NCBI GenBank assembly: GCA_051008875.1
Contig: JBPCXC010000144.1
Coordinates: 1-40,366 of the forward strand
DNA: 40,366 nucleotides
Direction: 5' to 3'
From: a bacterium
GTDB lineage: Bacteria > Pseudomonadota > Gammaproteobacteria > Arenicellales > Poriferihabitantaceae
The notes under the pieces were generated by a model. That model saw nothing but the letters and a program-made list of their open reading frames with translations, did no database searches and was not told where the DNA came from. The translations under genes were made by a program, and so were the position numbers. Shown piece after piece: positions 2,797-15,145 of the stretch; position 1 is the first letter of the stretch, and each line of letters starts with the position of its first letter.

Positions 2797-4878
2797 CTAA
2801 ATCTCCACATACTCGCGCTTGAACGGCACCGCGTCGGGGTCGATATCCTCGCCGAACTCGCGCGCGAAGCGATGGCCTTCGTACACCGCCGCGGCGATGG
2901 TTCCGGGCGCGAGGCAGTCGCCGATGCGCGATACCGACAACCGCGGCGACGTCGCGTTCGACTCGCGCGTCGCATCGAGGCGCGTGCGCAACGCCCGATA
3001 CAACGACTCGCGCGGGCGGCGCGCGGTCACCAGCACCGTGGTGGTCGCCTCCACCGCATGCGGCGCGTCGGCGCCGACATGGCGCAACTCGACTCGTCCG
3101 TCGCGGATGCAGTTCAGTTTGTGCTTCTCGATCAAAGTCACGCCGAGCGCGCGCAGCCGCCGCTCGATGTGTCCCTGCTCCAGCGTGTTGCGCGTCCACG
3201 CCGAGACCTCGGCGGCCGGCGTCGCCAGCGTCACGCGCGCGCCGGCGGCGACGAGTCGCTCGGCGATCACGCCGCCCATGTAATAGTGGTCGTCGTCGTA
3301 GATCAACGCATCGCCGACGACGGTCTCGCCCGCCATCACATCGTCCGGCGTGATCACGCGCACGCTATCGTCGCTTGCCATCGGCGCGCGGCGCGCGCGG
3401 CCGACGCCGTTGCGCACCCAGGTCGCGCCGACCGCGACGACGATGTGCGCGGCGCCGAGTTCTTCGGCGAAAGCGATGGCTTGCGCGGCGTCGAGTTCGC
3501 TGTGCGCGAAGCATTCCACCGCCGGCAGTCGGCGCAGTTGGCCGAGGCGATAGTCGGCGACTCGCCGCCAAGTGCTCAAGCCGGGCAGGCGACTTTCGCG
3601 CAACGTTCGTCCGCCGAACTCGTCCGCCGACTCGGCCAGGGTGACGCGGCAGCCGCGCCGGCCGAGCGACATCGCCGCCTCCAAGCCGGCCGCGCCGCCG
3701 CCGATGATCAGCACGCATTGTTCGCCGCGCGCGGCGGGGATTTTCTCGGGATGCCAGTCGCGCCGATGCTCTTCGCCCATGGTCGGATTCTGCGTGCAGC
3801 GGATCGGGCGCGCGGTCATGTCGCCGGAGACGCAGATGTTGCAGCCGATGCATTCGCGGATGTCGTCGCCACGGCCGGTTTCGATCTTGCGCGGCAGGAA
3901 CGGGTCGGCGATCGACGGCCGCGCAGCGCCGATCAGGTCGAGCACGCCGCGCTTGATCTGCGACGCCATCGCGTCCGGCGAGGTGAAGCGCCCGACGCCG
4001 ACCACCGGCTTGCCGGTGACTTGCTTGACGAACGCGGTGTATGGCTCTTGGAATCCTTCCTCGCCGAATCTCGCGCTGAGCGAATCGTTCGCCCAGTCGC
4101 TGATGTTGACGTCCCACAAGTCCGGCAACTCGGCCAGCATCTCGACCACTTCGCGTCCTTCGCGCTGCGCGCTGACGCCTTCGTCGCCGGCGAGTTCGTC
4201 CACCGCGAAACGCAACGCGACGCCGCAGCGGTCGCCGACCGCGTCCTTGGTGTCCTGCAATAACTCGCGCAGGAATCGCACGCGGTTCTCCAGACTGCCG
4301 CCGTATTCATCGCTGCGTTGATTGCGTCGGCGCGAGATGAAGTGGAACGGCAGCGCCAAGTCGTGCGCGGCGTACACATAGACGATGTCGAAGCCGATGT
4401 CGCGCGCGCGCAACGCCGCGGTGCGATGCCAGCGACGCACCGCGGCGATGTCGCGGCGAGTCATCGCGTAGGCTTGCGCCGGCTCGTCGGTGTCGAACAT
4501 CATCGCCGACACGCCCATCGCCGGCAGGCGGCTGTACAAGTTCGCCGAAGCGTGACCGTTGTGGGTAATCTCGATCGCGGCGAGCGCGCCGTGCTCATGC
4601 ACCGCGTCGGCCATCAACCGCAGCCGCTCCATGTCGCCGTCGTCCCACAAACGCCCCTCGACATACGGCGACCACTCCGAACTCGGATGGATCTCGACCT
4701 CCTGCGTCGACACCACGCCCCAGCCGCCTTCGGCCTTGAGCGCGCGCTGGCGCGCCTCGCCGCGCGGATAGAGATGCCCCATGCCGTTGCAATGCGGCAC
4801 TTGATAGAAGCGATTGCGCGTGGTCACCGGACCGATCTGCACCGGCTCGAAAAGAATGTCGTAGCGAGGATCGCGCAT
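2797..4878 (-). CDS. FMN/4Fe-4S/ADP-binding flavoprotein oxidoreductase of the trimethylamine/dimethylamine dehydrogenase - 2,4-dienoyl-CoA reductase family
   Basis: 693 aa. It has an OYE-like N-terminal barrel (FEPVQIGPVTTRNRFYQVPH), the Cys cluster CIGCNICVSGD...IRCTQNP, and then a Rossmann motif VLIIGGGAAGLEAA. Confidence 0.85.
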   Translation of the reverse strand: MRDPRYDILFEPVQIGPVTTRNRFYQVPHCNGMGHLYPRGEARQRALKAEGGWGVVSTQEVEIHPSSEWSPYVEGRLWDDGDMERLRLMADAVHEHGALAAIEITHNGHASANLYSRLPAMGVSAMMFDTDEPAQAYAMTRRDIAAVRRWHRTAALRARDIGFDIVYVYAAHDLALPFHFISRRRNQRSDEYGGSLENRVRFLRELLQDTKDAVGDRCGVALRFAVDELAGDEGVSAQREGREVVEMLAELPDLWDVNISDWANDSLSARFGEEGFQEPYTAFVKQVTGKPVVGVGRFTSPDAMASQIKRGVLDLIGAARPSIADPFLPRKIETGRGDDIRECIGCNICVSGDMTARPIRCTQNPTMGEEHRRDWHPEKIPAARGEQCVLIIGGGAAGLEAAMSLGRRGCRVTLAESADEFGGRTLRESRLPGLSTWRRVADYRLGQLRRLPAVECFAHSELDAAQAIAFAEELGAAHIVVAVGATWVRNGVGRARRAPMASDDSVRVITPDDVMAGETVVGDALIYDDDHYYMGGVIAERLVAAGARVTLATPAAEVSAWTRNTLEQGHIERRLRALGVTLIEKHKLNCIRDGRVELRHVGADAPHAVEATTTVLVTARRPRESLYRALRTRLDATRESNATSPRLSVSRIGDCLAPGTIAAAVYEGHRFAREFGEDIDPDAVPFKREYVEI

Positions 4879-4903
4879 AGTCGTCTCCGGATCGTGCGGC
4901 GGA

Positions 4904-6361
4904 TTACAAGTACCAGTCGGCTTCGGTTGGGTTCAAGTCGGATTCGCGTTCGTGTTTGTGTTTATGTTCGCGTTCATGTTCGCGTTCGCGTTCAGATTGC
5001 GCGCGCAAGAACGCTTGGTATTCAAGCGACTTGCAATGGCTGTATGCGTCCAAGTATTTTTGACCGAAGTAGTCGCGCAAAATCGCGCCGCGGCGGCATG
5101 CCTCGAACGCGCGCGGCGGGTCGAACGGCAGGTGCGGATGCAACTGTGCGCCGGCGTTTCCGGCGACCGGCGCGTCGGGCGCGAGCGATTCGCGGATGCC
5201 GTGGTGGATGCCGGCGAGCAACGCCGCCAGAGTCAGATACGGATTGGCGTCGGCGCCGGCGACGCGATGCTCGATGCGCCGCGCGCGCGCCGCGCTTTCG
5301 GCATCGCCCGCGCACGCCGGCACGCGCATCGCCACCGAACGATTCTCATGTCCCCAACTCGGGCCGACCGGCACATAACTATCGGGCACGAAGCGCCGAT
5401 ACGAGTTGATGTTCGGCGCGAAGATCGCCATCGCCTCGGCCATGCTCCGCTGCAGACCGCCGATCGCATGCAGCATCAAGTCGCCGACGCCGTCGCGCGC
5501 GCGTCGCGTGTCGTCGAACGCGTTGTCGGCGAACACGTTGTCGCCGCGTTGGTCGAGCAGGCTGATGTGCAAATGCAGACCGCTGCCGGCGTGTTCGGCG
5601 TACGGCTTCGCCATGAAGGTCGCGCGCATCGCATGCTTGCGCGCGACGCGCTGCACCGCACGGCGGAACATCACGCATTGATCGGCGGCTTCGAGCGGAC
5701 GGTCGCTGTGATGCAAATTAATCTCGAACTGCCCGGGCGCATACTCCGCCGAGATCGCGCCGGTCGCCACGCCCTGCTGCGCGCACGCGTCGCGCACTTC
5801 GTGCAGGTAGTCGCCGAAATCATCCACGCAATCAACGCTGTACACCTGCGTCGCGTCGGCGCGCCGGCGCCCGTCCGGAGTCGGCGGCGGACGCAGGCGT
5901 CCATCGTCGCGCGCCTCGTCGAGCAGATAGAACTCCAACTCGAACGCCACCACCGGACGCAGATTAAGTTCGCCGAAGCGATCGATCACGCGCGCGAGCA
6001 CGTTGCGCGGATCGAACGCATACGGCGGACGCGCGCCCGCGCCGCGCATGGTCAGCATCACCTGCGCGCCGCGCCGTCGCGCCCACGGCACCGGCGCGAG
6101 CGTGCCGCCGATCGGCGTCGCCACCTCGTCGGGATCGCCGTCGGAGAACCCGATGCCCTGCGGGTCGAGCGAATCGCCGGTCACCGCAAGCAGGAACGAC
6201 GAGCCGGGCATCATCACCCCCTCGCCGAAAACCTTCGGCGCCATCTCGATCGGATAGCGCTTGCCGCGCATCACGCACGACAAGTCGCACAAGAACGCAT
6301 CGAGATACTGCGTGTCGGGATGCTGTTGCAAATACGCGTCGAGTGGAGCGTCGGCGTTCAA
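4904..6361 (-). CDS. glutamine synthetase-family ligase (gamma-glutamyl-amine synthetase/PuuA-like)
   Basis: 485 aa with GS catalytic-domain motifs (FELEFYL, EYAPGQFEINL, MAKPY..GSGLHLHISL, NRSVAMRVP). The only in-frame start is a TTG at 6359-6361. The C-terminus carries an unusual His/Glu/Arg/Lys tail. Confidence 0.85.
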   Translation of the reverse strand: MNADAPLDAYLQQHPDTQYLDAFLCDLSCVMRGKRYPIEMAPKVFGEGVMMPGSSFLLAVTGDSLDPQGIGFSDGDPDEVATPIGGTLAPVPWARRRGAQVMLTMRGAGARPPYAFDPRNVLARVIDRFGELNLRPVVAFELEFYLLDEARDDGRLRPPPTPDGRRRADATQVYSVDCVDDFGDYLHEVRDACAQQGVATGAISAEYAPGQFEINLHHSDRPLEAADQCVMFRRAVQRVARKHAMRATFMAKPYAEHAGSGLHLHISLLDQRGDNVFADNAFDDTRRARDGVGDLMLHAIGGLQRSMAEAMAIFAPNINSYRRFVPDSYVPVGPSWGHENRSVAMRVPACAGDAESAARARRIEHRVAGADANPYLTLAALLAGIHHGIRESLAPDAPVAGNAGAQLHPHLPFDPPRAFEACRRGAILRDYFGQKYLDAYSHCKSLEYQAFLRAQSEREREHEREHKHKHERESDLNPTEADWYL

Positions 6362-6366
6362 ATCAG
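6358..6366. repeat. left copy of the 9-bp direct repeat TCAAATCAG bracketing the type II R-M cassette
   Basis: Identical 9-mer at 8115-8123. This copy contains the TTG start of the GS-family gene and sits exactly where GC content drops. Confidence 0.5.
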
Positions 6367-6415
6367 GTGATTTTTTGATTGGCTATTGGGTGCTCAGTGG
6401 AGCAGTCGCATCGGT

Positions 6416-7150
6416 TTAGTTGTTTTTATGTCCAAGATGTTTCCGTAGCACATTCTTTACATATGCTGGCATCTCTTTTTCTACCTTGATGGCTTTTTCC
6501 TTTAACTTTTCATATTCAACGATTTCTTCCCCGGACCAAAGGAGATCAAGCCGCCGAATTTCGCGCATTGCGATGTGGCTATACGATTCCGGATAAGCCC
6601 AGTAACACAATAAACAGACGGCGCTATCTTTTTTGGCCCAGTTGTCGCAATTTTCGCAACTCCATGATTTTGCTCGATTTGCGGAAGCGCAAAGTAGCAT
6701 GTATTCGTTGGTATCATCAGATAGATTTACAGCGTCACCGGCAATCTGGAATGGGATTCTGTGATCTATCTGCAGTTCCCGCTCCGGAAATGGTTCAAGA
6801 TATATGTTGCAGCGTTGTCCTTGTTTTTTAATCAGAGAGGCCTTTAGTTTGGACGAAAAAGCCGTTCTACCCGATAACTGTGCGGCGCGCACTTCTGACA
6901 AATTCCCAAACTTGTAAGCAGCTATTCTTCTGCCGTCCGAACCGGTAACACGGAAGGTTTTTAAAGGAATCCCGTTTTCCCGAACATCCCGTATGGCGCG
7001 TGGCGGGTGGTTATAGCCATATGTATCCTTAAGTTCTTCAGTCGTAATCTGCCCATGCTTGAGTATATGCTTGATTACTGTCTTAGGCCGCTTCCCTTGC
7101 ACATTGTTCAGCAGAACCAAAAAGTCCGGATGTAGTTTTTGGTTTTTCAT
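6416..7150 (-). CDS. HNH-family endonuclease, putative type II restriction enzyme
   Basis: 244 aa. HNH core QIDHRIPF...NEYMLLCASANRAKSWSCENC with flanking Cys pairs. AT-rich codon usage. Overlaps the upstream MTase gene by 4 nt (ATGA). Confidence 0.7.
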   Translation of the reverse strand: MKNQKLHPDFLVLLNNVQGKRPKTVIKHILKHGQITTEELKDTYGYNHPPRAIRDVRENGIPLKTFRVTGSDGRRIAAYKFGNLSEVRAAQLSGRTAFSSKLKASLIKKQGQRCNIYLEPFPERELQIDHRIPFQIAGDAVNLSDDTNEYMLLCASANRAKSWSCENCDNWAKKDSAVCLLCYWAYPESYSHIAMREIRRLDLLWSGEEIVEYEKLKEKAIKVEKEMPAYVKNVLRKHLGHKNN

Positions 7151-8076
7151 GCAAATACGCTTTCTTGTTGAGCGAGTCGTGTCTTTTTTGGAATTCTACT
7201 TTTTTCATTATTCAAACGATCAACCAAAGCCGGAGATAAATATAATGATTCGATTGTTTCATCAGTGTTTCCCAGCAAAGTCGATTGGCTTGATCTGCCC
7301 GCATTTATATACAGGTGTGTTAGAGAAAGCGTGCGCGGCAATTTCTTGCCATGTGATTTGTTCCCCGTTTGTCCGTCATAACTAACGATGTAGGAAATGT
7401 CTTTTCGATTCATTTCTTGAAGCGCGACAACAAATTCATCATAGGGTAGTCCACTCAAATAGCGATGGTCTCGCGTAAAAGATGTACCCTGATAGGGCGG
7501 GTCGAGATATATCAAATCGGTCTTCTCGGCTTTGGCGATGACTTCTCGAAAATCAACCGCGGACAGCGTGGTCTTGCCGGAAAGCAAGGCGGATACAGCG
7601 ATAATTTGCCTACGCATGGCGGCTGGCCGCATTCCGGAGCGGCGGTTGTCCGGGCTTTGATTGAATGAACCCGATGAACTGTATCGGACCGAACCCTTTA
7701 CGATACGCGCCAACAGATAGAGAAAATGATGCGGTTGATGCGACGCGTTGAATTGATCGCGTATGTCAAGGAAGTACTCTTTTTTGCGAGGGTGTTGTTC
7801 ATTCCACAACTTTTCATAAGATTGGGTTAGCTCTATAGGGCGATCTAATATTTCCCGCCAAAGCGCAATTAACGGCGCATTTAAGTCGTTCAGAATAACC
7901 CTTCGCGCAAGTCCACGCGCCAAGGCAGCGATAGAAACTGCGCTGGCACCGCAAAAAGGTTCAACCAAGCATTCAACATCGTGCGGGAAATGCGGGAGAA
8001 TGTGTCTTGCAATCTCTCGTTTGCTCCCTTGATAGGGAAATGGGTGTGGCGCCTGGGTGTCACTTGGCATTTTCAT
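7147..8076 (-). CDS. Dam-class (D12, alpha) N6-adenine DNA methyltransferase
   Basis: 309 aa. SAM motif VEPFCGASAV near the N-terminus and catalytic DPPYQG later, which is the alpha-class order. PYQGSKR start typical of MethyltransfD12. Confidence 0.85.
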   Translation of the reverse strand: MKMPSDTQAPHPFPYQGSKREIARHILPHFPHDVECLVEPFCGASAVSIAALARGLARRVILNDLNAPLIALWREILDRPIELTQSYEKLWNEQHPRKKEYFLDIRDQFNASHQPHHFLYLLARIVKGSVRYSSSGSFNQSPDNRRSGMRPAAMRRQIIAVSALLSGKTTLSAVDFREVIAKAEKTDLIYLDPPYQGTSFTRDHRYLSGLPYDEFVVALQEMNRKDISYIVSYDGQTGNKSHGKKLPRTLSLTHLYINAGRSSQSTLLGNTDETIESLYLSPALVDRLNNEKSRIPKKTRLAQQESVFA

Positions 8077-8114
8077 GTAATTATTCTACCGCAATTGCCA
8101 CTGTTAATCGCAAG

Positions 8115-8123
8115 TCAAATCAG
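8115..8123. repeat. right copy of the 9-bp direct repeat TCAAATCAG
   Basis: Identical to 6358-6366. This copy contains the TGA stop of the EamA gene (8120-8122). Confidence 0.5.
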
Positions 8124-9007
8124 CGATGGCGCATCATCCTGTACTCCCGTCGCGCGATGAACACGCCGCTGGTGACGACGATCGCGGCGCCGAGCAGGGT
8201 TGGCGGGTCGAGCACTTCGCCGTAGACGAAGAAGCCGATGATTATCGCCCACACCAGGATGAAGTAGTTGAACGGCTGCAGCACCACCGCCGGCGCGAGT
8301 TCGAGCGCCTTGACCAGCAGCAGGTGGCCGATGATCGAGGTGATGCTGATCAGCCCGAGTCCGAGCGCGGCGTCGGTGGTCATCGGCCGCCAGTTGAACG
8401 GCGCCAGCAGCATCGAGCCGGCGAAGCCGATCACGCCCATGTACAGCAGCGAGGTCTCGAACGAGTCGTGGCGCGCGACCTTGCGCGTCAGCAAGTTGTA
8501 CAGCGCGAACATGAACGCCGCGAGCAGCGCGATCGGTGCCGCCGGATTGAACGCCGCGGCGTCGGGGCGCAGGATGATCAGCGTGCCGACGAAGCCGCAC
8601 AGCACCGCGAGCCATCGCCGCCAGCCGACCGTCTCGCCGAGCAGCGGCACCGACAGCGCGGTGATGATCAGCGGGAAGCAGACGAACAGCGAATGCATCT
8701 CGGCCAGCCCGAGGAACTGGATGGTGTAGGCGAAGACGATGATCTCGCCGGCGACCAGCAGCCCGCGGAACACTTGCAGCCCGGGCCGGTGCGAACGCCA
8801 CGCCGCCTTGATGCCGCAGCGGCGCGCGACATAGATCAACGCGAACAAGGTGAAAAAGAAGAACCGCACCGCGACGATCTGCGACGCCGACAAGGTCTGG
8901 ATCAAATGCTTGGTCAGCGCATCCTGCGAAGCGAAGAACAAAGTCGCGCCAAGCAGCATGACGATCGCCGCGGTGGTCGTTCTCGGAACGCCGATGGATG
9001 GATTCAT
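8120..9007 (-). CDS. EamA/DMT-family transporter
   Basis: About 10 hydrophobic segments in two EamA-like halves, with host-like high GC. I prefer the ATG at 9005-9007 (MNPSIGVPRTTTAAIVMLL...) over the Arg/Pro-rich extension to 9070. Confidence 0.8.
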   Translation of the reverse strand: MNPSIGVPRTTTAAIVMLLGATLFFASQDALTKHLIQTLSASQIVAVRFFFFTLFALIYVARRCGIKAAWRSHRPGLQVFRGLLVAGEIIVFAYTIQFLGLAEMHSLFVCFPLIITALSVPLLGETVGWRRWLAVLCGFVGTLIILRPDAAAFNPAAPIALLAAFMFALYNLLTRKVARHDSFETSLLYMGVIGFAGSMLLAPFNWRPMTTDAALGLGLISITSIIGHLLLVKALELAPAVVLQPFNYFILVWAIIIGFFVYGEVLDPPTLLGAAIVVTSGVFIARREYRMMRHR

Positions 9008-9081
9008 GTGCGTTGATGGTGGTGGCGGCAAACGCCGACGATGCGGCAGGCGGGCGGCGCAGTTTAGCACGCGGGCGACGA

Positions 9082-9110
9082 TTGATTGGGCCAGCGTTTT
9101 TCTATATATT
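9082..9110 (+). promoter_or_regulatory. sigma70-like promoter candidate for the res-mod operon
   Basis: TTGATT (9082-9087), 17-nt spacer, TATATT (9105-9110), about 120 nt upstream of the res ATG and at the point where the sequence turns AT-rich. Confidence 0.4.
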
Positions 9111-9150
9111 CACCGCCCGATTCGGTGATCAACCACTAACGAGGCGAAAT

Positions 9151-9216
9151 ATGCGTGTTGTAGATGTTGTTATGAATAATGTTGCGCGGGCGGCTGTATG
9201 CGCGCATGGAATCTAG
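9151..9216 (+). CDS. 21-codon upstream ORF in the res leader (MRVVDVVMNNVARAAVCAHGI)
   Basis: ATG preceded by GAGG with a 6-nt spacer. This is the only good Shine-Dalgarno in the leader. The TAG stop lies 13 nt before the res ATG at 9230. No recognisable family. Confidence 0.25.
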   Translation: MRVVDVVMNNVARAAVCAHGI

Positions 9217-9229
9217 CGCGCGCGCGATT

Positions 9230-12200
9230 ATGAGTACCGACCTGGACAAGTTCTTTGAGCGTCCAATTCTTAACTCGCCATACGAGTGCCCGACGCAGCA
9301 CTGGGAGTTGGACGAGGATCGGCAGCCGACCAATAAGATTCTGGAGACGCGGCGCCCGGCGGATTTCATCACGCCGATTCCAGCGCCGAGACAAGTTCGG
9401 CGCGCAAACCAAACAAACTTGCCGGCTGATGAGGATGACGGACTTCTCGCACAACAAGAGTACGCAACTACCATCATCAACGAAGTTCGTGGTGCAGTAG
9501 ATGCATGGCGTAAGTTTCCGAATCCGAACGACTGGGGCGTTACGCCAACCACCACGAAACTTTTAGAACATTGGCGCGGGCATCGTTTCAGCAACCTGCG
9601 CCCGTTCTTTTGTCAAATCGAAGCCGTTGAAATTGCTATTTGGCTGACCGAAGTTGCGCCGAAGTTTGGCGAAAACGGCGATAAATTCATCAAGTATCTC
9701 GCCAACGCCAACCAAGAATCTAACCCCGACTTGAGTCGCCTCGCGTTAAAACTCGCTACTGGCGCGGGCAAGACCACAGTGATGGCGATGTTGATTGCGT
9801 GGCAAACGCTGAACGCTGTCCGCAATCCGAACAACAAGTCGTTCACGAAAGGTTTTTTAGTGGTTACGCCCGGCATCACCATCCGCGATCGCCTACGCGT
9901 GCTGAAACCCAACGACCCAGATAGTTATTTAGTGAGTCGCGAACTCGTTCCGTCAGGCATGCTCCGCGAATTGCATGAAGCCAGAATCGTCATCACCAAC
10001 TATCACGCGTTCAAGTTGCGTGAAACAATCAAACTCGCAAAAGGGAGTCGGCAATTACTGCAAGGCCAGCGTGGCGAAGAAATCAAGACGCTGGAAACCG
10101 AAGGTCAGATGCTGAAGCGCGTTATGCCCGAACTGGAGAAAATGAAAAATATCATGGTGCTGAACGACGAAGCACATCACTGCTATCGTGAAAAACTGGC
10201 GGATAGGACGGAAAGGAAATTAGTAGAAGATGAGAAAACGGAAGCCAAGAAAAACACGGACGCCGCGCGTGTTTGGATTACTGGCTTGGAAACGGTGCAA
10301 CGCAAGTTGAAAACCAGTCGCGTATTCGATCTTTCCGCAACCCCATTTTTCCTGCGTGGCTCTGGCTACGCCGAAGGCACATTGTTCCCGTGGACGATGA
10401 GCGACTTTTCGCTGATGGATGCGATTGAAAGCGGCATCGTCAAACTGCCGCGCGTGCCAGTGTCGGACAATGTGCCCGACGAAGACATACCGAAATTCCG
10501 CAACCTGTGGACTCACATTCGCGAGCACATGCCGCGGAAAGGGCGCAGAACTGGCGGCGCTCTTGACCCGCTGAGTCTCCCGACAGAACTGCAAGGTGCG
10601 CTCGAAGCATTGTACGGGCATTACGAAAAAGTGTATCAACAATGGCAAGAAGTGGGCATCAAAGTGCCGCCTTGTTTTGTATTGGTATGCAACAACACCG
10701 CAACATCCAAGTTGTTGTATGATTACATTTCCGGATTCCATTCTACCAACGAAGATGGTTCCGTCAAATTCAACAACGGTCGACTGAAACTCTTTCGCAA
10801 TTTCGATGACGAAGGCAAACCGCTGCCGCGACCGCGCACGTTGCTAATCGACAGCGAACAACTCGAATCCGGCGAAGCACTCGATAAAAACTTTCGCGCA
10901 GCGGCGAGTGCGGAAATTGAACATTTCCGTAGCGATGTACGCAAACGCGGCGATCACAAACTCGCCGAAAATTTAAGCGACGAGGATTTGTTGCGCGAAG
11001 TAATGAACACGGTCGGCAAAGAAGATCGCCTCGGCGGTGAGACGCGTTGTGTGGTTTCTGTTTCGATGCTTACCGAAGGCTGGGACGCCAACACCGTTAC
11101 GCACATTCTTGGTGTGCGCGCGTTCGGCACGCAGTTGTTGTGCGAACAAGTCGTTGGTCGTGCGTTGCGCCGACTATCGTACAAACCAAACGACGACGGA
11201 CTTTTGAGCGTTGAATACGCCGATGTTTTCGGCATTCCCTTTGACTTCACCGCTCGCCCCGGTGGCGGCAGTCACAGCCCGCCAGAAAACACAATTCACG
11301 TACAAGCCATATCCCCAGACCGAGATGCCAGTGAGATTACATTTCCGCGCGTCGCTGGATACCGCGTGGATCTTCCCGAAGACCACATAAAGACCAAGTT
11401 CGACAAAGATTCCACTTACAAACTTACGCCAAAAACAGTTGCACCGACCAAAACGCGCAACGAAGGCATCATCGGCGAAGGCGTCAATCTCAGTCTTGAT
11501 TACCTTGAAAAAGTTCGTTTGGCGGAAGTGGCGTTCTACCTCACCCGACATCTGGTCGAAAAGAAATGGCGCAAACCGAACGAAGCCCCGCGCGCGCATC
11601 TGTTTGGTCAGTTGCTACGCATAACGCAGTATTGGCTCGAACATCATCTTATTTGCCAAGGCGGAACCAAGCCAGCGCAACTACTTTATCTACAACTCGC
11701 CGATGCCGCTTGCGAGCGTATCACCCGCGGCATCGTTACGCACTTCGAAAACGAACGCCCGGTCAAAGCGACACTCGATGCATATAATCCAATCGGTTCA
11801 ACGCGGTATGTCAATTTCCGTACATCAAAATCACATTACCGAACCGACCCGCGCCGTTGCCACATAAACTATGTGGTGTGCGACAGCAGTTGGGAGTCAG
11901 AGTTTTGTCGCATCGTTGAATCGCATCCGCGGGTGCGCGCGTATGTGAAAAACCAAAACTTAGGACTGGAAGTTCCATACCGTTACCGCTCCATATCGCG
12001 CAAATATTTTCCGGATTTTATCGTGCGCCTTGACGACGGCAATGGCGAAGATGATTTGCTGAACTTGATCGTCGAAATCAAAGGTTATCGCGGTGAAGAT
12101 GCCGAAGAGAAAAAATCCACAATGGATGCGTACTGGGTGCCCGGTGTGAACAATCTTAAAGAACACGGTCGCTGGGCTTTCGCCGAGTTCACAGAAGTTT

Positions 12201-12292
12201 TTGAAATGGAGGATGACTTTGAAGCGAAAATCACCGAGCAAATCGAACAAGCGATTGCCGCTGAAACCAACACCCATGAACAAGAGAACTGA
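9230..12292 (+). CDS. res: type III restriction enzyme Res subunit (SF2 helicase + C-terminal PD-(D/E)xK nuclease)
   Basis: Walker A KLATGAGKTTVMA, DEAH box VLNDEAHHCY, motif VI MLTEGWDANTVTHILGVRAF..VGRALRR, and a C-terminal nuclease-like segment YFPDFIVRL...LIVEIKGY. I chose the start at MSTDLDKFFERPILNSPYE; the ORF is open from 9179. Confidence 0.85.
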   Translation: MSTDLDKFFERPILNSPYECPTQHWELDEDRQPTNKILETRRPADFITPIPAPRQVRRANQTNLPADEDDGLLAQQEYATTIINEVRGAVDAWRKFPNPNDWGVTPTTTKLLEHWRGHRFSNLRPFFCQIEAVEIAIWLTEVAPKFGENGDKFIKYLANANQESNPDLSRLALKLATGAGKTTVMAMLIAWQTLNAVRNPNNKSFTKGFLVVTPGITIRDRLRVLKPNDPDSYLVSRELVPSGMLRELHEARIVITNYHAFKLRETIKLAKGSRQLLQGQRGEEIKTLETEGQMLKRVMPELEKMKNIMVLNDEAHHCYREKLADRTERKLVEDEKTEAKKNTDAARVWITGLETVQRKLKTSRVFDLSATPFFLRGSGYAEGTLFPWTMSDFSLMDAIESGIVKLPRVPVSDNVPDEDIPKFRNLWTHIREHMPRKGRRTGGALDPLSLPTELQGALEALYGHYEKVYQQWQEVGIKVPPCFVLVCNNTATSKLLYDYISGFHSTNEDGSVKFNNGRLKLFRNFDDEGKPLPRPRTLLIDSEQLESGEALDKNFRAAASAEIEHFRSDVRKRGDHKLAENLSDEDLLREVMNTVGKEDRLGGETRCVVSVSMLTEGWDANTVTHILGVRAFGTQLLCEQVVGRALRRLSYKPNDDGLLSVEYADVFGIPFDFTARPGGGSHSPPENTIHVQAISPDRDASEITFPRVAGYRVDLPEDHIKTKFDKDSTYKLTPKTVAPTKTRNEGIIGEGVNLSLDYLEKVRLAEVAFYLTRHLVEKKWRKPNEAPRAHLFGQLLRITQYWLEHHLICQGGTKPAQLLYLQLADAACERITRGIVTHFENERPVKATLDAYNPIGSTRYVNFRTSKSHYRTDPRRCHINYVVCDSSWESEFCRIVESHPRVRAYVKNQNLGLEVPYRYRSISRKYFPDFIVRLDDGNGEDDLLNLIVEIKGYRGEDAEEKKSTMDAYWVPGVNNLKEHGRWAFAEFTEVFEMEDDFEAKITEQIEQAIAAETNTHEQEN

Positions 12293-12294
12293 AC

Positions 12295-15021
12295 ATGCCG
12301 ACCCGCAAAAAGAGTAAGTCCAAGGCGAAGAAAGTAACCGCGCTGACGCACGATAAAGCATCGCGCAAGAACATTCCAACTGCGGAGCATCAGGCGCTTG
12401 TGGATGAGCGCGATCAGCATCCGATTCGCGTCGCCTACGAACGGCGCAACCGCGATCTTGACCCGCAACTGGTGTGGCGCGAGAAGGATCAGCAGGATGC
12501 GTCCGATTTGGTGGTGCAAGCGCCGCCGCTGTTCATCCAAGAGAAAGTGCATCCGAAAGTGCTGATTGACGACTTGGTGCGCGAGAGCGCACGCACCGAA
12601 CCGTCGGATCAAGTTGACTTGTTTTCAGATTTCAACGGCTTGCCGGACGGAGATGCGCGAACCGAGTTCTACCAGCACGATGCGAACTGGTCGAACCGGA
12701 TGATTCTCGGCGATAGTCTGCAAGTTATGGCGTCGCTGGCGGAGCGCGAGGGATTGCGCGGCAAAGTTCAGTGTATCTATATCGATCCGCCGTATGGCAT
12801 CAAATTCAACTCAAATTTTCAGTGGTCGACGACGAGTCGCGATGTCAAGGATGGAAAAGGCGAGCACATCACGCGCGAGCCGGAGCAAGTAAAGGCGTTC
12901 CGGGATACTTGGCGTGATGGGGTTCATAGTTATCTCGCTTATATGCGAGATCGGTTGATTGTTGGGCGCGACTTACTTGCCGAATCCGGATCCATATTTG
13001 TGCAGATTGGTGATGAGAATGTACACCGCATTCGCACGTTGATGGACGAAGTGTTTGGGGATGAAAATTTTGTTTCTCAGATACATTTTGCGACAACCAG
13101 TGGATTTTCTACCGCGAAGCTTAGTCGCATAGGCGATTATTTGCTTTGGTATGCCCGCGATAAAGAGGCTGTTAAATACAGAACACTTTTTGTCTCGAAA
13201 GGAAATATCGGAAGTGGTCTCGAATCGTATAAATACTTGCGTCTGCAAAATGGTGTACAGCGATCGATGACGAAAGAGGAGCGCGATGAGAAGGTTCCGC
13301 TTCCCGATGGATGCAAAGCGTTTCGTTATAGCGATATGCAAAGTAAAGGAGCTGCCTCGCAGGATGCTCCAGTTGAATTTCGGAATCAAATTTATCGGCC
13401 GCTCAAAAGCAGCCACTGGAAGGCAAATTGGCCCAAGGGGATCGAGCGACTTAAATTTTCTGGGCGCATCGACGCAGCCGGTAGTCGACTCGCTTACATT
13501 CGCTTTGCTGGTGATTACCCCGTTCAACAAATTGTTAATTCTTGGATGGACACCGGCTTTGGTTATTCAGCGACAGATAAACAATATGTTGTGCAAACCC
13601 ACGAACGTGTCGTCCGACGATGTGTTCTTATGTCTACCGATCCCGGTGACCTTGTCCTCGATCCAACCGGCGGCTCCGGCACTGCCGCATACGTCGCTGA
13701 GCAGTGGGGTCGTCGTTGGATCACGATTGATACTTCGCGTGTTGCGCTCGCACTCGCTCGCGCGCGAATTATGGGCGCGCGCTACCCGTACTACAAACTC
13801 GCAGGCGATACGGTGCAAGAGGGCTTTGACTACGAACGCGTCCCGCACATCACGCTCAAATTCATCGCCAACAACGCCGAGATTGATGTCATCTACGAAG
13901 AACATCAACAGCGACTCGAACCGTTGCGCGCGAAGTTGAACAATGCGCTTAAGGAAAAGTGGGAGGAGTGGGAAATTCCACGCGATGCCGATAATGCTTG
14001 GTCAAGCGAGGCGCGCAAAACACACGCCGCGTGGTGGGAAGGGCGCATCGCGCGACAAAAAGAAATTGATGCGAACATCGCGAAGAAGGCCGATTTAGAG
14101 ACACTTTACGACAAACCGCATGAAGACAAAACGAAGGTGCGCGTTGCGGGTCCGTTCACCGTGGATAGTCTTTCGCCACACCGTATGCTCGTTACAGATG
14201 AAACAAACAACAAAGCAGCCGAAGACAATGCCGAGTACAACAAGACGCGTAACTTCACTGCCATAATTTTGGAAAACTTAAAAACGGCTGGCGTGCAACA
14301 AGCGAATAAGGAAGACAAAATCGAATTCACTTCATTGGAGCCGTGGTGCGGGGATATGGTGTGCGCAGAGGGTCGTTATGTAAAAACTAGTAAGGGCGAC
14401 GCGGAAATACGCGCCGCTATTTTTATCGGTCCCGAGTTCGGCACCGTCTCACGCACCGACTTAGTAGCCGCCGCCAAAGAAGCCGCCGAAGCGGGATTTG
14501 ATGTATTGATTGCTTGCGCGTTCAACTACGAGGCGCACGCCACCGAAATCGAAAAATTGGGGCGTATGCAAGTGTTGAAAGCGCGCATGAACGCCGACTT
14601 GCACATGGCGGGCGACTTGAAAGCCACCGACAAAGGCAACTTGTTCGTAATCTTCGGTGAACCCGACATCGAAATCCAACCCGCCGATGACGGTCAGTTC
14701 AAAGTCAAACTAAACGGCGTGGACGTGTATCACCCGAACAGCGGAGAAATCCGCAGCGACGACACCGACGGCATCGCTTGCTGGTTCATCGACACCAACT
14801 ACAACGAAGAAAGCTTCTTCGTCCGCCACGCCTATTTCCTCGGCGCCGGCGATCCATACAAATCTCTAAAAACCACCCTAAAAGCCGAAATCAACAAAGA
14901 AGCATGGGAAACCTTGAAAAGCGACACCTCGCGCCCATTTCCCAAACCTGAAACGGGCCGAATCGCCGTAAAAGTAATCAACCACCTCGGCGACGAGGTG
15001 ATGAAGGTGTTTCGGGTTTGA
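12295..15021 (+). CDS. mod: type III Mod-like N6-adenine/N4-cytosine DNA methyltransferase (beta class) with a roughly 400-aa C-terminal extension
   Basis: 908 aa. IYIDPPYGIKFNSNF (motif IV) precedes DPTGGSGTAAYVAEQWGRRWITID (motif I), which is the beta-class order. The ATG lies 2 nt after the res TGA. Confidence 0.85.
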   Translation: MPTRKKSKSKAKKVTALTHDKASRKNIPTAEHQALVDERDQHPIRVAYERRNRDLDPQLVWREKDQQDASDLVVQAPPLFIQEKVHPKVLIDDLVRESARTEPSDQVDLFSDFNGLPDGDARTEFYQHDANWSNRMILGDSLQVMASLAEREGLRGKVQCIYIDPPYGIKFNSNFQWSTTSRDVKDGKGEHITREPEQVKAFRDTWRDGVHSYLAYMRDRLIVGRDLLAESGSIFVQIGDENVHRIRTLMDEVFGDENFVSQIHFATTSGFSTAKLSRIGDYLLWYARDKEAVKYRTLFVSKGNIGSGLESYKYLRLQNGVQRSMTKEERDEKVPLPDGCKAFRYSDMQSKGAASQDAPVEFRNQIYRPLKSSHWKANWPKGIERLKFSGRIDAAGSRLAYIRFAGDYPVQQIVNSWMDTGFGYSATDKQYVVQTHERVVRRCVLMSTDPGDLVLDPTGGSGTAAYVAEQWGRRWITIDTSRVALALARARIMGARYPYYKLAGDTVQEGFDYERVPHITLKFIANNAEIDVIYEEHQQRLEPLRAKLNNALKEKWEEWEIPRDADNAWSSEARKTHAAWWEGRIARQKEIDANIAKKADLETLYDKPHEDKTKVRVAGPFTVDSLSPHRMLVTDETNNKAAEDNAEYNKTRNFTAIILENLKTAGVQQANKEDKIEFTSLEPWCGDMVCAEGRYVKTSKGDAEIRAAIFIGPEFGTVSRTDLVAAAKEAAEAGFDVLIACAFNYEAHATEIEKLGRMQVLKARMNADLHMAGDLKATDKGNLFVIFGEPDIEIQPADDGQFKVKLNGVDVYHPNSGEIRSDDTDGIACWFIDTNYNEESFFVRHAYFLGAGDPYKSLKTTLKAEINKEAWETLKSDTSRPFPKPETGRIAVKVINHLGDEVMKVFRV

Positions 15022-15043
15022 TGAATTAATAAAGGAATCGAAG

Positions 15044-15145
15044 ATGAATTTGCCGAATGAAACGAAAGCGCACGTCAAAGAACTTATTGACCATGCTGTT
15101 GGCGAATATAAGCGGGAGTATATGCAGCCCCCAAAACGGACTTGA
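15044..15145 (+). CDS. 33-codon ORF (MNLPNETKAHVKELIDHAVGEYKREYMQPPKRT), possibly the 5' stump of a third island gene
   Basis: AAGGA lies 7 nt upstream of the ATG. The ORF is AT-rich like the island and ends where GC rises again. Its stop lies inside the -35 of the ABC operon promoter candidate. Confidence 0.2.
   Translation: MNLPNETKAHVKELIDHAVGEYKREYMQPPKRT

What the first reader, a model, noticed from the sequence alone, without database searches (positions are those of the whole stretch)
6358..8123. Type II R-M cassette inserted exactly at the EamA-stop / GS-start junction and bracketed by a 9-bp direct repeat
Seen in sequence: an AT-rich 1.75-kb block (35% GC at 6421-6480 versus 72% at 6001-6060 by hand count) encodes only a Dam-class MTase and an HNH nuclease, which overlap by ATGA. 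The block is flanked by TCAAATCAG at 6358-6366 and 8115-8123. Removing the block and one repeat copy rebuilds, on the minus strand, ..CAT CGC TGA T TTG AAC GCC... That is the EamA stop followed one base later by the TTG start of the GS-family gene, a tightly coupled junction. As a rough estimate, a 9-mer shared by two ~50-nt windows is expected by chance about 1% of the time (about 2500 position pairs / 4^9). No integrase, transposase or terminal inverted repeats are visible. Established knowledge: R-M gene pairs have been described as mobile units that insert with target duplication. Other observations: the GS gene now lacks a Shine-Dalgarno and an ATG. I found no terminator after the nuclease gene, so GS and the downstream flavoprotein are probably transcribed through the cassette. 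-10-like hexamers (TAGAAT at 8083-8088, ATAATT) abut the MTase ATG, which hints at a leaderless or near-leaderless transcript.
Basis: partly seen in the sequence, partly recalled or inferred. Interest (0 to 1): 0.6.

Follow-up and report, generated by a model that had tools for sequence, protein, structure and literature searches.

The report
Restriction-modification cassette inserted between two genes
A foreign 1.75-kb pair of restriction-modification genes sits exactly between a transporter gene's stop and the next gene's start, flanked by a 9-base duplication; it is a clean new example of a known way in which these defence genes move.

Summary
TCAAATCAG occurs at 6358-6366 and 8115-8123. 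It brackets a 1748-bp block (6367-8114) of 46% GC and 45% GC3, against 65-66% GC and 81-90% GC3 in the flanking host genes. The block carries only a Dam-family MTase (7147-8076) and a 244-aa winged-helix plus HNH-like nuclease (6416-7150), overlapping by ATGA.

Four same-genus genomes and one from another genus have EamA directly followed by the GS-family gene. Two of them show an ATGA stop/start overlap at the homologous position. The R-M pair was not found in 11 of 11 other genus genomes searched, so this is a lineage-specific horizontal insertion.

It cannot be proved, because the nearest relatives share only about 70% protein identity, none carries the 9-mer, and no same-species DNA was found. 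The cassette has no terminal inverted repeats, no attC, no second copy and no recombinase.

New here:
- Two genus relatives carry a different MTase-Mrr fusion at the same junction, so the site is a hotspot.
- A second R-M island is inserted on the other side of EamA.
- Many relatives of the cassette look like integron cassettes.

This is a new member of a kind already described (PMC2853133).

The parts
4904..6361 (-). Host glutamine-synthetase-family gene (485 aa, TTG start at 6361-6359). Its start codon lies inside the left repeat copy.
   Evidence: Pfam Gln-synt_C 2.2e-94. The N-terminus aligns with relatives from residue 1-8. G011 has ATG at the same position, and G003 uses TTG.
6358..6366 (.). 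Direct repeat copy 1 (TCAAATCAG; CTGATTTGA on the coding strand). It holds the GS TTG start and a duplicated TGA.
6367..6415 (-). 49-nt non-coding 3' end of the cassette. It has no terminator, no attC-like hairpin and no inverted-repeat partner.
6416..7150 (-). Putative restriction endonuclease, 244 aa. It has an N-terminal winged helix (residues about 8-93) and a C-terminal HNH-like region (D129-H130, N158, C154/C165/C168/C179/C182).
   Evidence: Pfam HTH_39 3e-5 and HNH 0.03, sub-threshold. The motif residues are invariant or at least 90% conserved in 32 homologues. AF2 is confident only for the residues 8-93. A plasmid homologue is annotated 'HNH endonuclease signature motif containing protein' next to a Dam MTase.
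7147..8076 (-). Dam-family (D12 class) N6-adenine DNA methyltransferase, 309 aa. It overlaps the nuclease gene by ATGA.
   Evidence: Pfam PF02086 1.2e-37. TIGR00571 scores 125.1 bits against a cut-off of 114.85. EPFCGASA and DPPYQG are invariant among homologues, and the N-terminus is full length.
8077..8114 (-). 38-nt non-coding 5' end of the cassette. It holds -10-like boxes (TAGAAT 8088-8083, AATAAT 8085-8080) abutting the MTase ATG, with no Shine-Dalgarno. A leaderless or near-leaderless promoter is likely.
   Evidence: Promoter-like hit TTAACA-16-AATAAT at 8107-8080 on the minus strand. The same -10 box sits 6-8 nt before the ATG in L030, L032, L033, L037, L039, L046, L048, L049 and L054.
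8115..8123 (.). Direct repeat copy 2 (TCAAATCAG). It holds the EamA TGA stop (8122-8120).
8120..9070 (-). Host EamA-family transporter gene. The likely true start is the ATG at 9007. It is now flanked by R-M insertions on both sides.
   Evidence: Pfam EamA 1.1e-23. Protein identity with genus relatives is 61-76%.

Best explanation
A compact foreign type II restriction-modification unit (Dam-family MTase followed by a winged-helix/HNH-like nuclease, 1748 bp, carrying its own -10 box) entered this lineage by horizontal transfer. It was inserted into the tightly coupled stop/start junction of a conserved EamA-GS-flavoprotein gene string.

The insertion duplicated 9 bp of the target (CTGATTTGA on the coding strand). 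EamA therefore kept its TGA in the upstream copy, and the GS-family gene kept its TTG in the downstream copy. The cassette points the same way as the operon and has no terminator, so GS and the flavoprotein are now probably transcribed through it. The MTase is probably made from a leaderless transcript.

Shown: foreign origin; exact placement; intact genes; empty sites in relatives; absence of transposon ends, attC and extra copies.

Inferred: that the repeat is a target duplication; the mechanism (a staggered break with fill-in, or a microhomology-guided join, by an unidentified enzyme acting in trans); read-through; and leaderless expression.
For: - Placement and composition.
- Empty junctions: G011, G008, G006, G002 and G023 have empty EamA/GS junctions. 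G011 (CATTCGATGAACGCC) and G008 have ATGA coupling at the position homologous to the rebuilt CATCGCTGATTTGAACGCC.
- Distribution: the pair was not found in 11 of 11 other genus genomes and occurs in 1 of 60 relatives. It is single copy in its own genome.
- Family: about 5,900 homologues, with at most 77% identity to this copy, spread over many phyla and small plasmids, with the MTase gene directly upstream of the nuclease gene in every locus inspected.
Both repeat copies abut the GC step.
- Motifs are intact.
- No terminator.
- Conserved -10 box 6-8 nt before the ATG.
- The kind is described: repeats spanning start or stop codons, and R-M insertion into operon-like structures (PMC2853133, read).
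Against: - No relative carries the single-copy 9-mer, and no same-species genome or contig exists in the collections searched. The ancestral junction is therefore reconstructed, not observed.
- No terminal inverted repeats were found: 12% of shuffles align the two ends as well. No known transposase type fits.
- Across 78 family loci, flanking repeats of 9 bp or more are only modestly enriched (10 against 3 in a reversed control). Two of those are long repeats of host origin. Target duplication is therefore not a demonstrated family habit.
- The neighbouring R-M island has no flanking repeat of 7 bp or more.
The assembly was not checked.
Confidence: 0.7

Rival explanations
1. The cassette is a real horizontal insertion, but the 9-bp repeat is coincidental. 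The DNA entered by illegitimate or blunt end-joining, or by replacement of earlier junction DNA through flanking homology, without target duplication.
For: - 9- to 11-bp exact repeats are common in this 2.1-kb region.
- 5.8% of equally spaced zone pairs elsewhere in the window share a 9-mer.
- The adjacent R-M island inserted without any repeat.
- The junction is variable in the genus: a 280-nt AT-rich spacer in G002 and a different R-M gene in G003 and G007. Replacement of earlier inserted DNA is therefore conceivable.
Against: - The 5.8% background comes from GC-rich low-complexity DNA, whereas this 9-mer is AT-rich and unique.
- The repeat contains exactly the stop and start codons and abuts the GC steps.
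- The rebuilt junction resembles the ATGA-coupled junctions of G011 and G008.
Confidence: 0.18
2. The unit is an integron gene cassette placed at a non-integron (secondary) site by an integron integrase acting in trans.
For: - Many relatives of this R-M pair are bounded by GTTAG/GTTAA on both sides and end in a conserved imperfect hairpin with bulged bases, like attC. 80% of cells are paired, against 30-51% when the partners are slid, with 5 compensatory pairs.
- The window's cassette is similarly compact, promoter-proximal and co-directional with the operon.
- The same 9-mer lies in the attC-like site of L075, just before GTTAG.
- Defence systems carried as integron cassettes are documented (bioRxiv 10.1101/2024.07.02.601686, listed).
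Against: - The window's 3' end has no attC-like hairpin, either as it stands or as a closed circle (z = -0.88 and -1.36).
- There is no GTTRRRY core at either boundary.
- Integrase crossover would duplicate about 3 bases, not 9.
- No integron integrase scores over the cut-off in the 87%-complete assembly.
Confidence: 0.07
3. The block is an assembly chimera in a metagenome-assembled genome (367 contigs), or it is ancestral to the genus and was lost elsewhere.
For: The genome is a fragmented MAG, and reads could not be checked.
Against: - A chimera would not restore both flanking genes in frame with a 9-bp overlap, which is far below assembler k-mer sizes.
- Ancestral presence is contradicted by GC3 of 45% against 81-90%, and by the pair not being found in all 11 other genus genomes searched.
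Confidence: 0.04

Closest known systems
R-M gene complexes as mobile units inserted with target duplication (Furuta, Abe and Kobayashi, Nucleic Acids Res 2010; PMC2853133)
   Same: - An R-M pair alone, with no linked mobility gene, flanked by direct repeats, and with empty sites in related genomes.
- That paper notes that the repeats often span a start or stop codon and leave the target gene intact.
- It also reports a type II R-M inserted into an operon-like structure.
   Different: - Their recombinase-free class has long, variable duplications (tens to hundreds of bp).
- Their short 8-bp duplications came with 26-65-bp terminal inverted repeats. Here the repeat is 9 bp and there are no inverted repeats.
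- Here the empty site is known only from distant species.
Integron gene cassettes carrying defence systems (sedentary chromosomal integrons; bioRxiv 10.1101/2024.07.02.601686)
   Same: - A compact unit that points the same way as the host genes.
- Relatives of this very R-M pair have GTTAG boundaries and an attC-like 3' hairpin.
   Different: The window's copy has no attC, no core site and no integrase in the assembly, and it has a 9-bp rather than roughly 3-bp repeat.
Orthodox type II R-M systems with a Dam-class (alpha, D12) MTase and an HNH (beta-beta-alpha-Me) nuclease, for example the NlaIII group (named from my own knowledge, not compared here)
   Same: - Separate M and R genes that overlap.
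- A Dam-family MTase above NCBIfam's cut-off.
- A D-H...N...N plus Cys4 pattern in the nuclease.
   Different: - No sequence comparison with any characterised enzyme was possible (no REBASE, no PDB hit).
- The N-terminal winged helix (HTH_39) has no characterised counterpart that I could test.
- The recognition sequence is unknown.

Membership tests
Type II restriction-modification system | Adjacent, separate MTase and endonuclease genes | tested here: met
   7147-8076 and 6416-7150 overlap by ATGA. In every related locus inspected the MTase gene lies directly upstream of the nuclease gene, with the two frames overlapping in the loci; MTase was not detected in 1 of the 80 surveyed loci.
Type II restriction-modification system | MTase with SAM-binding (FxGxG) and catalytic (DPPY) motifs | tested here: met
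   EPFCGASA and DPPYQG are invariant in the alignment. PF02086 1.2e-37.
Type II restriction-modification system | Partner protein is a nuclease | tested here: inconclusive
   Pfam HNH E = 0.03, 14.9 bits against a cut-off of 21.4. D129, H130, N158 and the cysteines are conserved. There is no PDB hit, and the AF2 model of residues 92-210 is below pLDDT 50.
Type II restriction-modification system | Sequence-specific methylation and cleavage | not testable with these tools
Dam family (D12 class) N6-adenine MTase | Score above the curated family cut-off | tested here: met
   TIGR00571 scores 125.1 bits against a cut-off of 114.85. It is not the E. coli Dam equivalog (NF008152: 64.7 against 441).
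R-M unit inserted with target duplication (PMC2853133) | Direct repeats immediately flanking the R-M genes | tested here: met
   9 bp at 6358-6366 and 8115-8123, both abutting the GC step; 0.56% by chance.
R-M unit inserted with target duplication (PMC2853133) | Empty site in a related genome carrying one copy of the repeat | tested here: inconclusive
   Empty junctions exist in G011, G008, G006, G002 and G023, but the sequence has diverged and none has the 9-mer. No same-species DNA was found.
DNA transposon or MITE-like non-autonomous element | Terminal inverted repeats | tested here: not met
   The best end-to-end alignment scores 14, and 12% of shuffles match it. 9 of 30 positions are identical when the ends are anchored.
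DNA transposon or MITE-like non-autonomous element | More than one copy, or repeated ends, in the genome | tested here: not met
   Only the self match in 2.08 Mb of a genome that is 87% complete.
Integron gene cassette | attC site (imperfect hairpin with bulged bases) at the 3' end | tested here: not met
   In the window, folds are -6.3 and -8.1 kcal/mol over 85 nt, with z = -0.88 and -1.36. The feature is met in relatives L075-L105.
Integron gene cassette | GTTRRRY core at both boundaries | tested here: not met
   There is no GTT between the nuclease stop and the GS start on the coding strand. Relatives such as L036 have GTTAAGT and GTTAGGC.
Integron gene cassette | Integron integrase available in the genome | tested here: not met
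   The best TIGR02249 hit scores 79.7 bits against a cut-off of 265. The assembly is 87% complete.

The most novel reading that the evidence does not exclude
This very widespread Dam + wHTH/HNH pair would be a self-contained 'minimal mobile cassette'. It normally travels as an integron-type cassette. It could also enter stop/start junctions of host operons with no attC, inverted repeats or resident recombinase, by a short (9-bp) target duplication or microhomology route. The EamA/GS junction of this sponge-symbiont genus would be a recurrent landing site for unrelated R-M genes that exploit operon read-through.
Probability: 0.15. Interest if true: 0.65.

Novelty: new member of a known kind. 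Interest (0 to 1): 0.38.

Why it matters
This is a tidy natural example of how a defence gene pair can be wedged into a translationally coupled operon junction without destroying either neighbour. It comes from an uncultured, probably sponge-associated lineage; the nearest named relative is Candidatus Spongiihabitans.

Three things suggest that certain operon junctions act as defence-gene landing pads without nearby recombinase genes:
- A different R-M gene sits at the same junction in two sister species.
- A second R-M island lies on the other side of the same 950-bp host gene.
- Near-relatives of the cassette occur across many phyla of sponge symbionts.

The cassette also separates GS from the upstream stop codon it was coupled to. 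This is a testable case of a selfish insertion changing host operon expression.

Tried and rejected
- Terminal inverted repeats: none.
- Second copies, or repeated ends, in the own genome: none.
- Conserved non-coding ends shared with the closest cassettes: none.
- attC in the window, folded as it stands and as a closed circle: not significant.
- Integron integrase in the own genome: below the cut-off.
- Flanking repeat for the neighbouring island: none of 7 bp or more.
- Family-wide test for short flanking repeats: weak (10 of 78 loci against 3 of 78 in the control).
- Similarity of the G002 spacer to either insert: none.
- PDB sequence search for the nuclease: nothing.
- AF2 model of the nuclease domain: too poor for a fold search.
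- Same-species empty site: none of the 120 best GS homologues listed is above 71% identity. Two metagenome scans found nothing, one for the predicted empty junction and one for the same-species GS N-terminus.
- Site counts for GATC, CATG and others in the cassette say nothing about specificity for a recent arrival.
Full report
**1. What is in the sequence**

TCAAATCAG occurs at 6358-6366 and 8115-8123, and the match does not extend further on either side. Between the copies lie 1748 bp (6367-8114) of 45.9% GC. The flanking host genes are 66.2% and 65.0% GC. GC3 is 45% in both cassette genes and 81-90% in the GS, EamA and flavoprotein genes.

All genes here are on the minus strand:
- EamA transporter, 8120-9070.
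- D12/Dam MTase, 7147-8076 (PF02086 1.2e-37; TIGR00571 125 bits, above the 114.85 cut-off).
- A 244-aa protein, 6416-7150, overlapping the MTase by ATGA.
- A glutamine-synthetase-family gene, 4904-6361, starting with TTG.
- An OYE-type flavoprotein, 2797-4878.

The 244-aa protein has a confident N-terminal winged helix (HTH_39 3e-5; AF2 pLDDT 80-92 for residues 11-80). Its HNH match is sub-threshold (E = 0.03). D129-H130, N158 and a cysteine cluster are invariant or nearly so in 32 homologues. 'HNH nuclease' is therefore likely but not shown. There was no PDB hit, and the AF2 model of the C-terminal half is unusable.

**2. Is it an insertion?**

Yes.
- In four same-genus genomes (G011, G008, G006, G002) and one from another genus (G023), EamA is directly followed by the GS gene.
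- The EamA-GS-flavoprotein order recurs in G011, G002, G003 and G007.
- In G011 the junction reads CATTCGATGAACGCC, with the EamA TGA overlapping the GS ATG. G008 has the same ATGA coupling.
- Removing the block and one repeat copy from the window gives CATCGCTGATTTGAACGCC. That is the same architecture with a 1-nt spacer and a TTG start.
- The nuclease was not found in any of the 11 other genus genomes searched. It occurs in 1 of 60 relatives, where it sits in a larger low-GC island.
- The cassette is single copy in its own 2.08-Mb assembly.

Ancestral presence with loss elsewhere, and host-like codon usage, are both excluded.

**3. Is the 9-bp repeat a target duplication?**

The insert must lie between the EamA stop and the GS start and must contain both cassette genes. 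This leaves two zones of 64 and 54 nt for its ends. Only 0.56% of 200,000 shuffles of those zones share a 9-mer. A control on real GC-rich host DNA at the same spacing gives 5.8%, but that reflects low-complexity GC repeats, unlike this AT-rich 9-mer. The 9-mer occurs four more times in the genome. Both copies abut the GC step, and together they hold exactly one stop and one start codon.

Against this:
- No relative has the 9-mer. The relatives share only 55-76% protein identity in these two genes, so that is uninformative.
- None of the 120 best GS homologues listed, from a search of 5.8 billion proteins, exceeds 71% identity.
- Two metagenome scans found nothing. One was for the predicted empty junction with free wobble bases. 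The other was for the same-species GS N-terminus.

I put a true target duplication at about 0.7-0.75.

**4. Mechanism**

- There are no terminal inverted repeats: 12% of shuffles align the two ends equally well.
- The ends are not repeated elsewhere in the genome.
- No non-coding ends are shared with the closest cassettes.

A survey of 80 related loci from GTDB species genomes gave flanking repeats of 9 bp or more in 10 of 78, against 3 of 78 in a reversed-sequence control. Two of these are long repeats:
- 88 bp at 94% identity in L082. This is itself a palindromic, MITE-like unit.
- 117 bp at 87% identity in L035.

The two long repeats are unrelated to each other. Target duplication is therefore not a demonstrated habit of this family.

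The survey did reveal something else. Many relatives are built like integron cassettes. This holds for a cyanobacterial subgroup (L071-L105) and also for Poribacteria and gammaproteobacterial loci (L036, L039, L043, L094). Their features are:
- A GTTAG/GTTAA core 25-115 nt before the MTase ATG.
- A second core after a conserved imperfect hairpin that follows the nuclease stop. In L079 it reads CACTACGTTGGTGCGGACGGCA...TGCCGCCGCACAACTTCACC|GTTAG, with two bulged bases.

On eight sequences, 80% of cells pair in my hand-drawn structure, against 30-51% when the partners are slid. Five pairs show compensatory changes, and 0 of 500 shuffles reach the covariation score.

The window's cassette does not share this. 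It has no GTT core at either boundary. Its 3' end has no significant hairpin, either as it stands or closed into a circle (z = -0.88 and -1.36). No integron integrase scores over the cut-off in the assembly. An integrase crossover would also duplicate about 3 bases rather than 9.

My best reading is a one-off integration of a minimal fragment, with a 9-bp staggered-break fill-in or a microhomology join. The enzyme responsible is unknown.

**5. Expression**

- No terminator-like site or stable structure lies between the nuclease stop and the GS TTG. Read-through into GS and the flavoprotein gene is therefore plausible, but it is inferred.
- The insertion did not cost GS its Shine-Dalgarno or ATG. 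The TTG is part of the repeat, G003 also starts with TTG, and none of the relatives' junctions read shows a Shine-Dalgarno.
- What was lost is the stop/start coupling with EamA.
- The MTase ATG is preceded by TAGAAT-AATTAC with no Shine-Dalgarno. A TAnAAT box 6-8 nt before the ATG recurs in about ten of the 27 closest loci. This supports a leaderless transcript as a family trait, by comparison only.

**6. Context**

- In G003 and G007 the same EamA/GS junction holds a different foreign gene, pointing the same way. It is a 487-500-aa N6_N4 MTase fused to an Mrr-type nuclease domain, at about 55-58% GC.
- The two copies are 78-84% identical in DNA, except for a central stretch that does not align.
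- G002 has a 280-nt AT-rich spacer at the junction.
- On the other side of EamA, 9103-15143 is a second insertion. It carries a BPTD_3080-family restriction enzyme (1303 bits) and a 908-aa MTase, at 52% GC. G002 has the SBP gene next to EamA. This island has no flanking repeat of 7 bp or more.

**7. Comparison with known systems**

The R-M family has about 5,900 homologues. The closest, at 70-77% identity, come mainly from sponge-associated or symbiont MAGs (Latescibacterota, Poribacteria, Thiosymbion, Nitrospinales, Dehalococcoidia). More distant members sit on 5-7-kb plasmids of Aeromonas and Hymenobacter.

Furuta et al. 2010 (PMC2853133) already describe:
- R-M units flanked by repeats, with empty sites in relatives.
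- Repeats that span start or stop codons and so leave the target gene intact.
- Insertion into operon-like structures.
- 8-bp duplications, though in their cases these came with inverted repeats.

**8. Verdict**

This is a new member of a known kind and of moderate interest. The hotspot and the integron-like relatives are the most useful additions.

Noticed in passing
L075, L079, L081, L083, L092, L095, L096, L105 (about 80 nt after the nuclease stop), and L036, L039, L043, L094: Relatives of this R-M pair are bounded by GTTAG/GTTAA on both sides. They end in a conserved imperfect hairpin with two bulged bases, like an integron attC. Compensatory changes keep the stem: 80% of cells pair, against 30-51% when the partners are slid. 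The family seems to travel largely as integron-type cassettes.
   Followed up: partly
L013:2324-3859 (G003) and L014:2393-3895 (G007): The same EamA/GS junction in two sister species holds a different foreign gene pointing the same way: an N6_N4 MTase fused to an Mrr_cat nuclease domain. The two copies are 78-84% identical in DNA, except for a central stretch of about 220 nt that does not align, perhaps a swapped recognition domain.
   Followed up: partly
window 9103-15143: A second R-M island lies on the other side of EamA, at 52% GC. It carries a BPTD_3080-family restriction enzyme (9179-12292) and a 908-aa MTase (12295-15021). G002 has the SBP gene directly next to EamA, so this is also an insertion. 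It has no flanking repeat of 7 bp or more.
   Followed up: partly
L075:4788-4796: The exact 9-mer CTGATTTGA lies in the attC-like site of a Microcoleus cassette, three bases before its GTTAG core. Sister cassettes have CACAACTTC there. It occurs only five times outside the window's own DNA in all 108 loci. This is probably chance (roughly 3-10%), but it sits at the equivalent 3' boundary.
   Followed up: partly
L082:2937-3024 and 4767-4852; L035:2934-3050 and 4797-4913: Two family members have the M+R pair bracketed by long direct repeats: 88 bp at 94% identity and 117 bp at 87%. The L082 unit is itself palindromic (MITE- or REP-like).
   Followed up: no
window 8077-8088, and the same position in L030, L032, L033, L037, L039, L046, L048, L049, L054: A TAnAAT box sits 6-8 nt before the MTase ATG, with no Shine-Dalgarno, in many family members. 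This points to a leaderless MTase mRNA as a family trait.
   Followed up: partly
L006:1209-1490 and 2929-3123 (G002): G002 has a 280-nt AT-rich spacer with a small ORF between EamA and GS. It also has a duplicated fragment of the GS C-terminus (58% identical over 65 aa) just after GS.
   Followed up: no
The closest relatives of the cassette (70-77% identity) come from several phyla of sponge-associated or symbiont MAGs. The host's nearest named relative is Candidatus Spongiihabitans. This suggests exchange of the R-M pair across phyla within sponge microbiomes.
   Followed up: no
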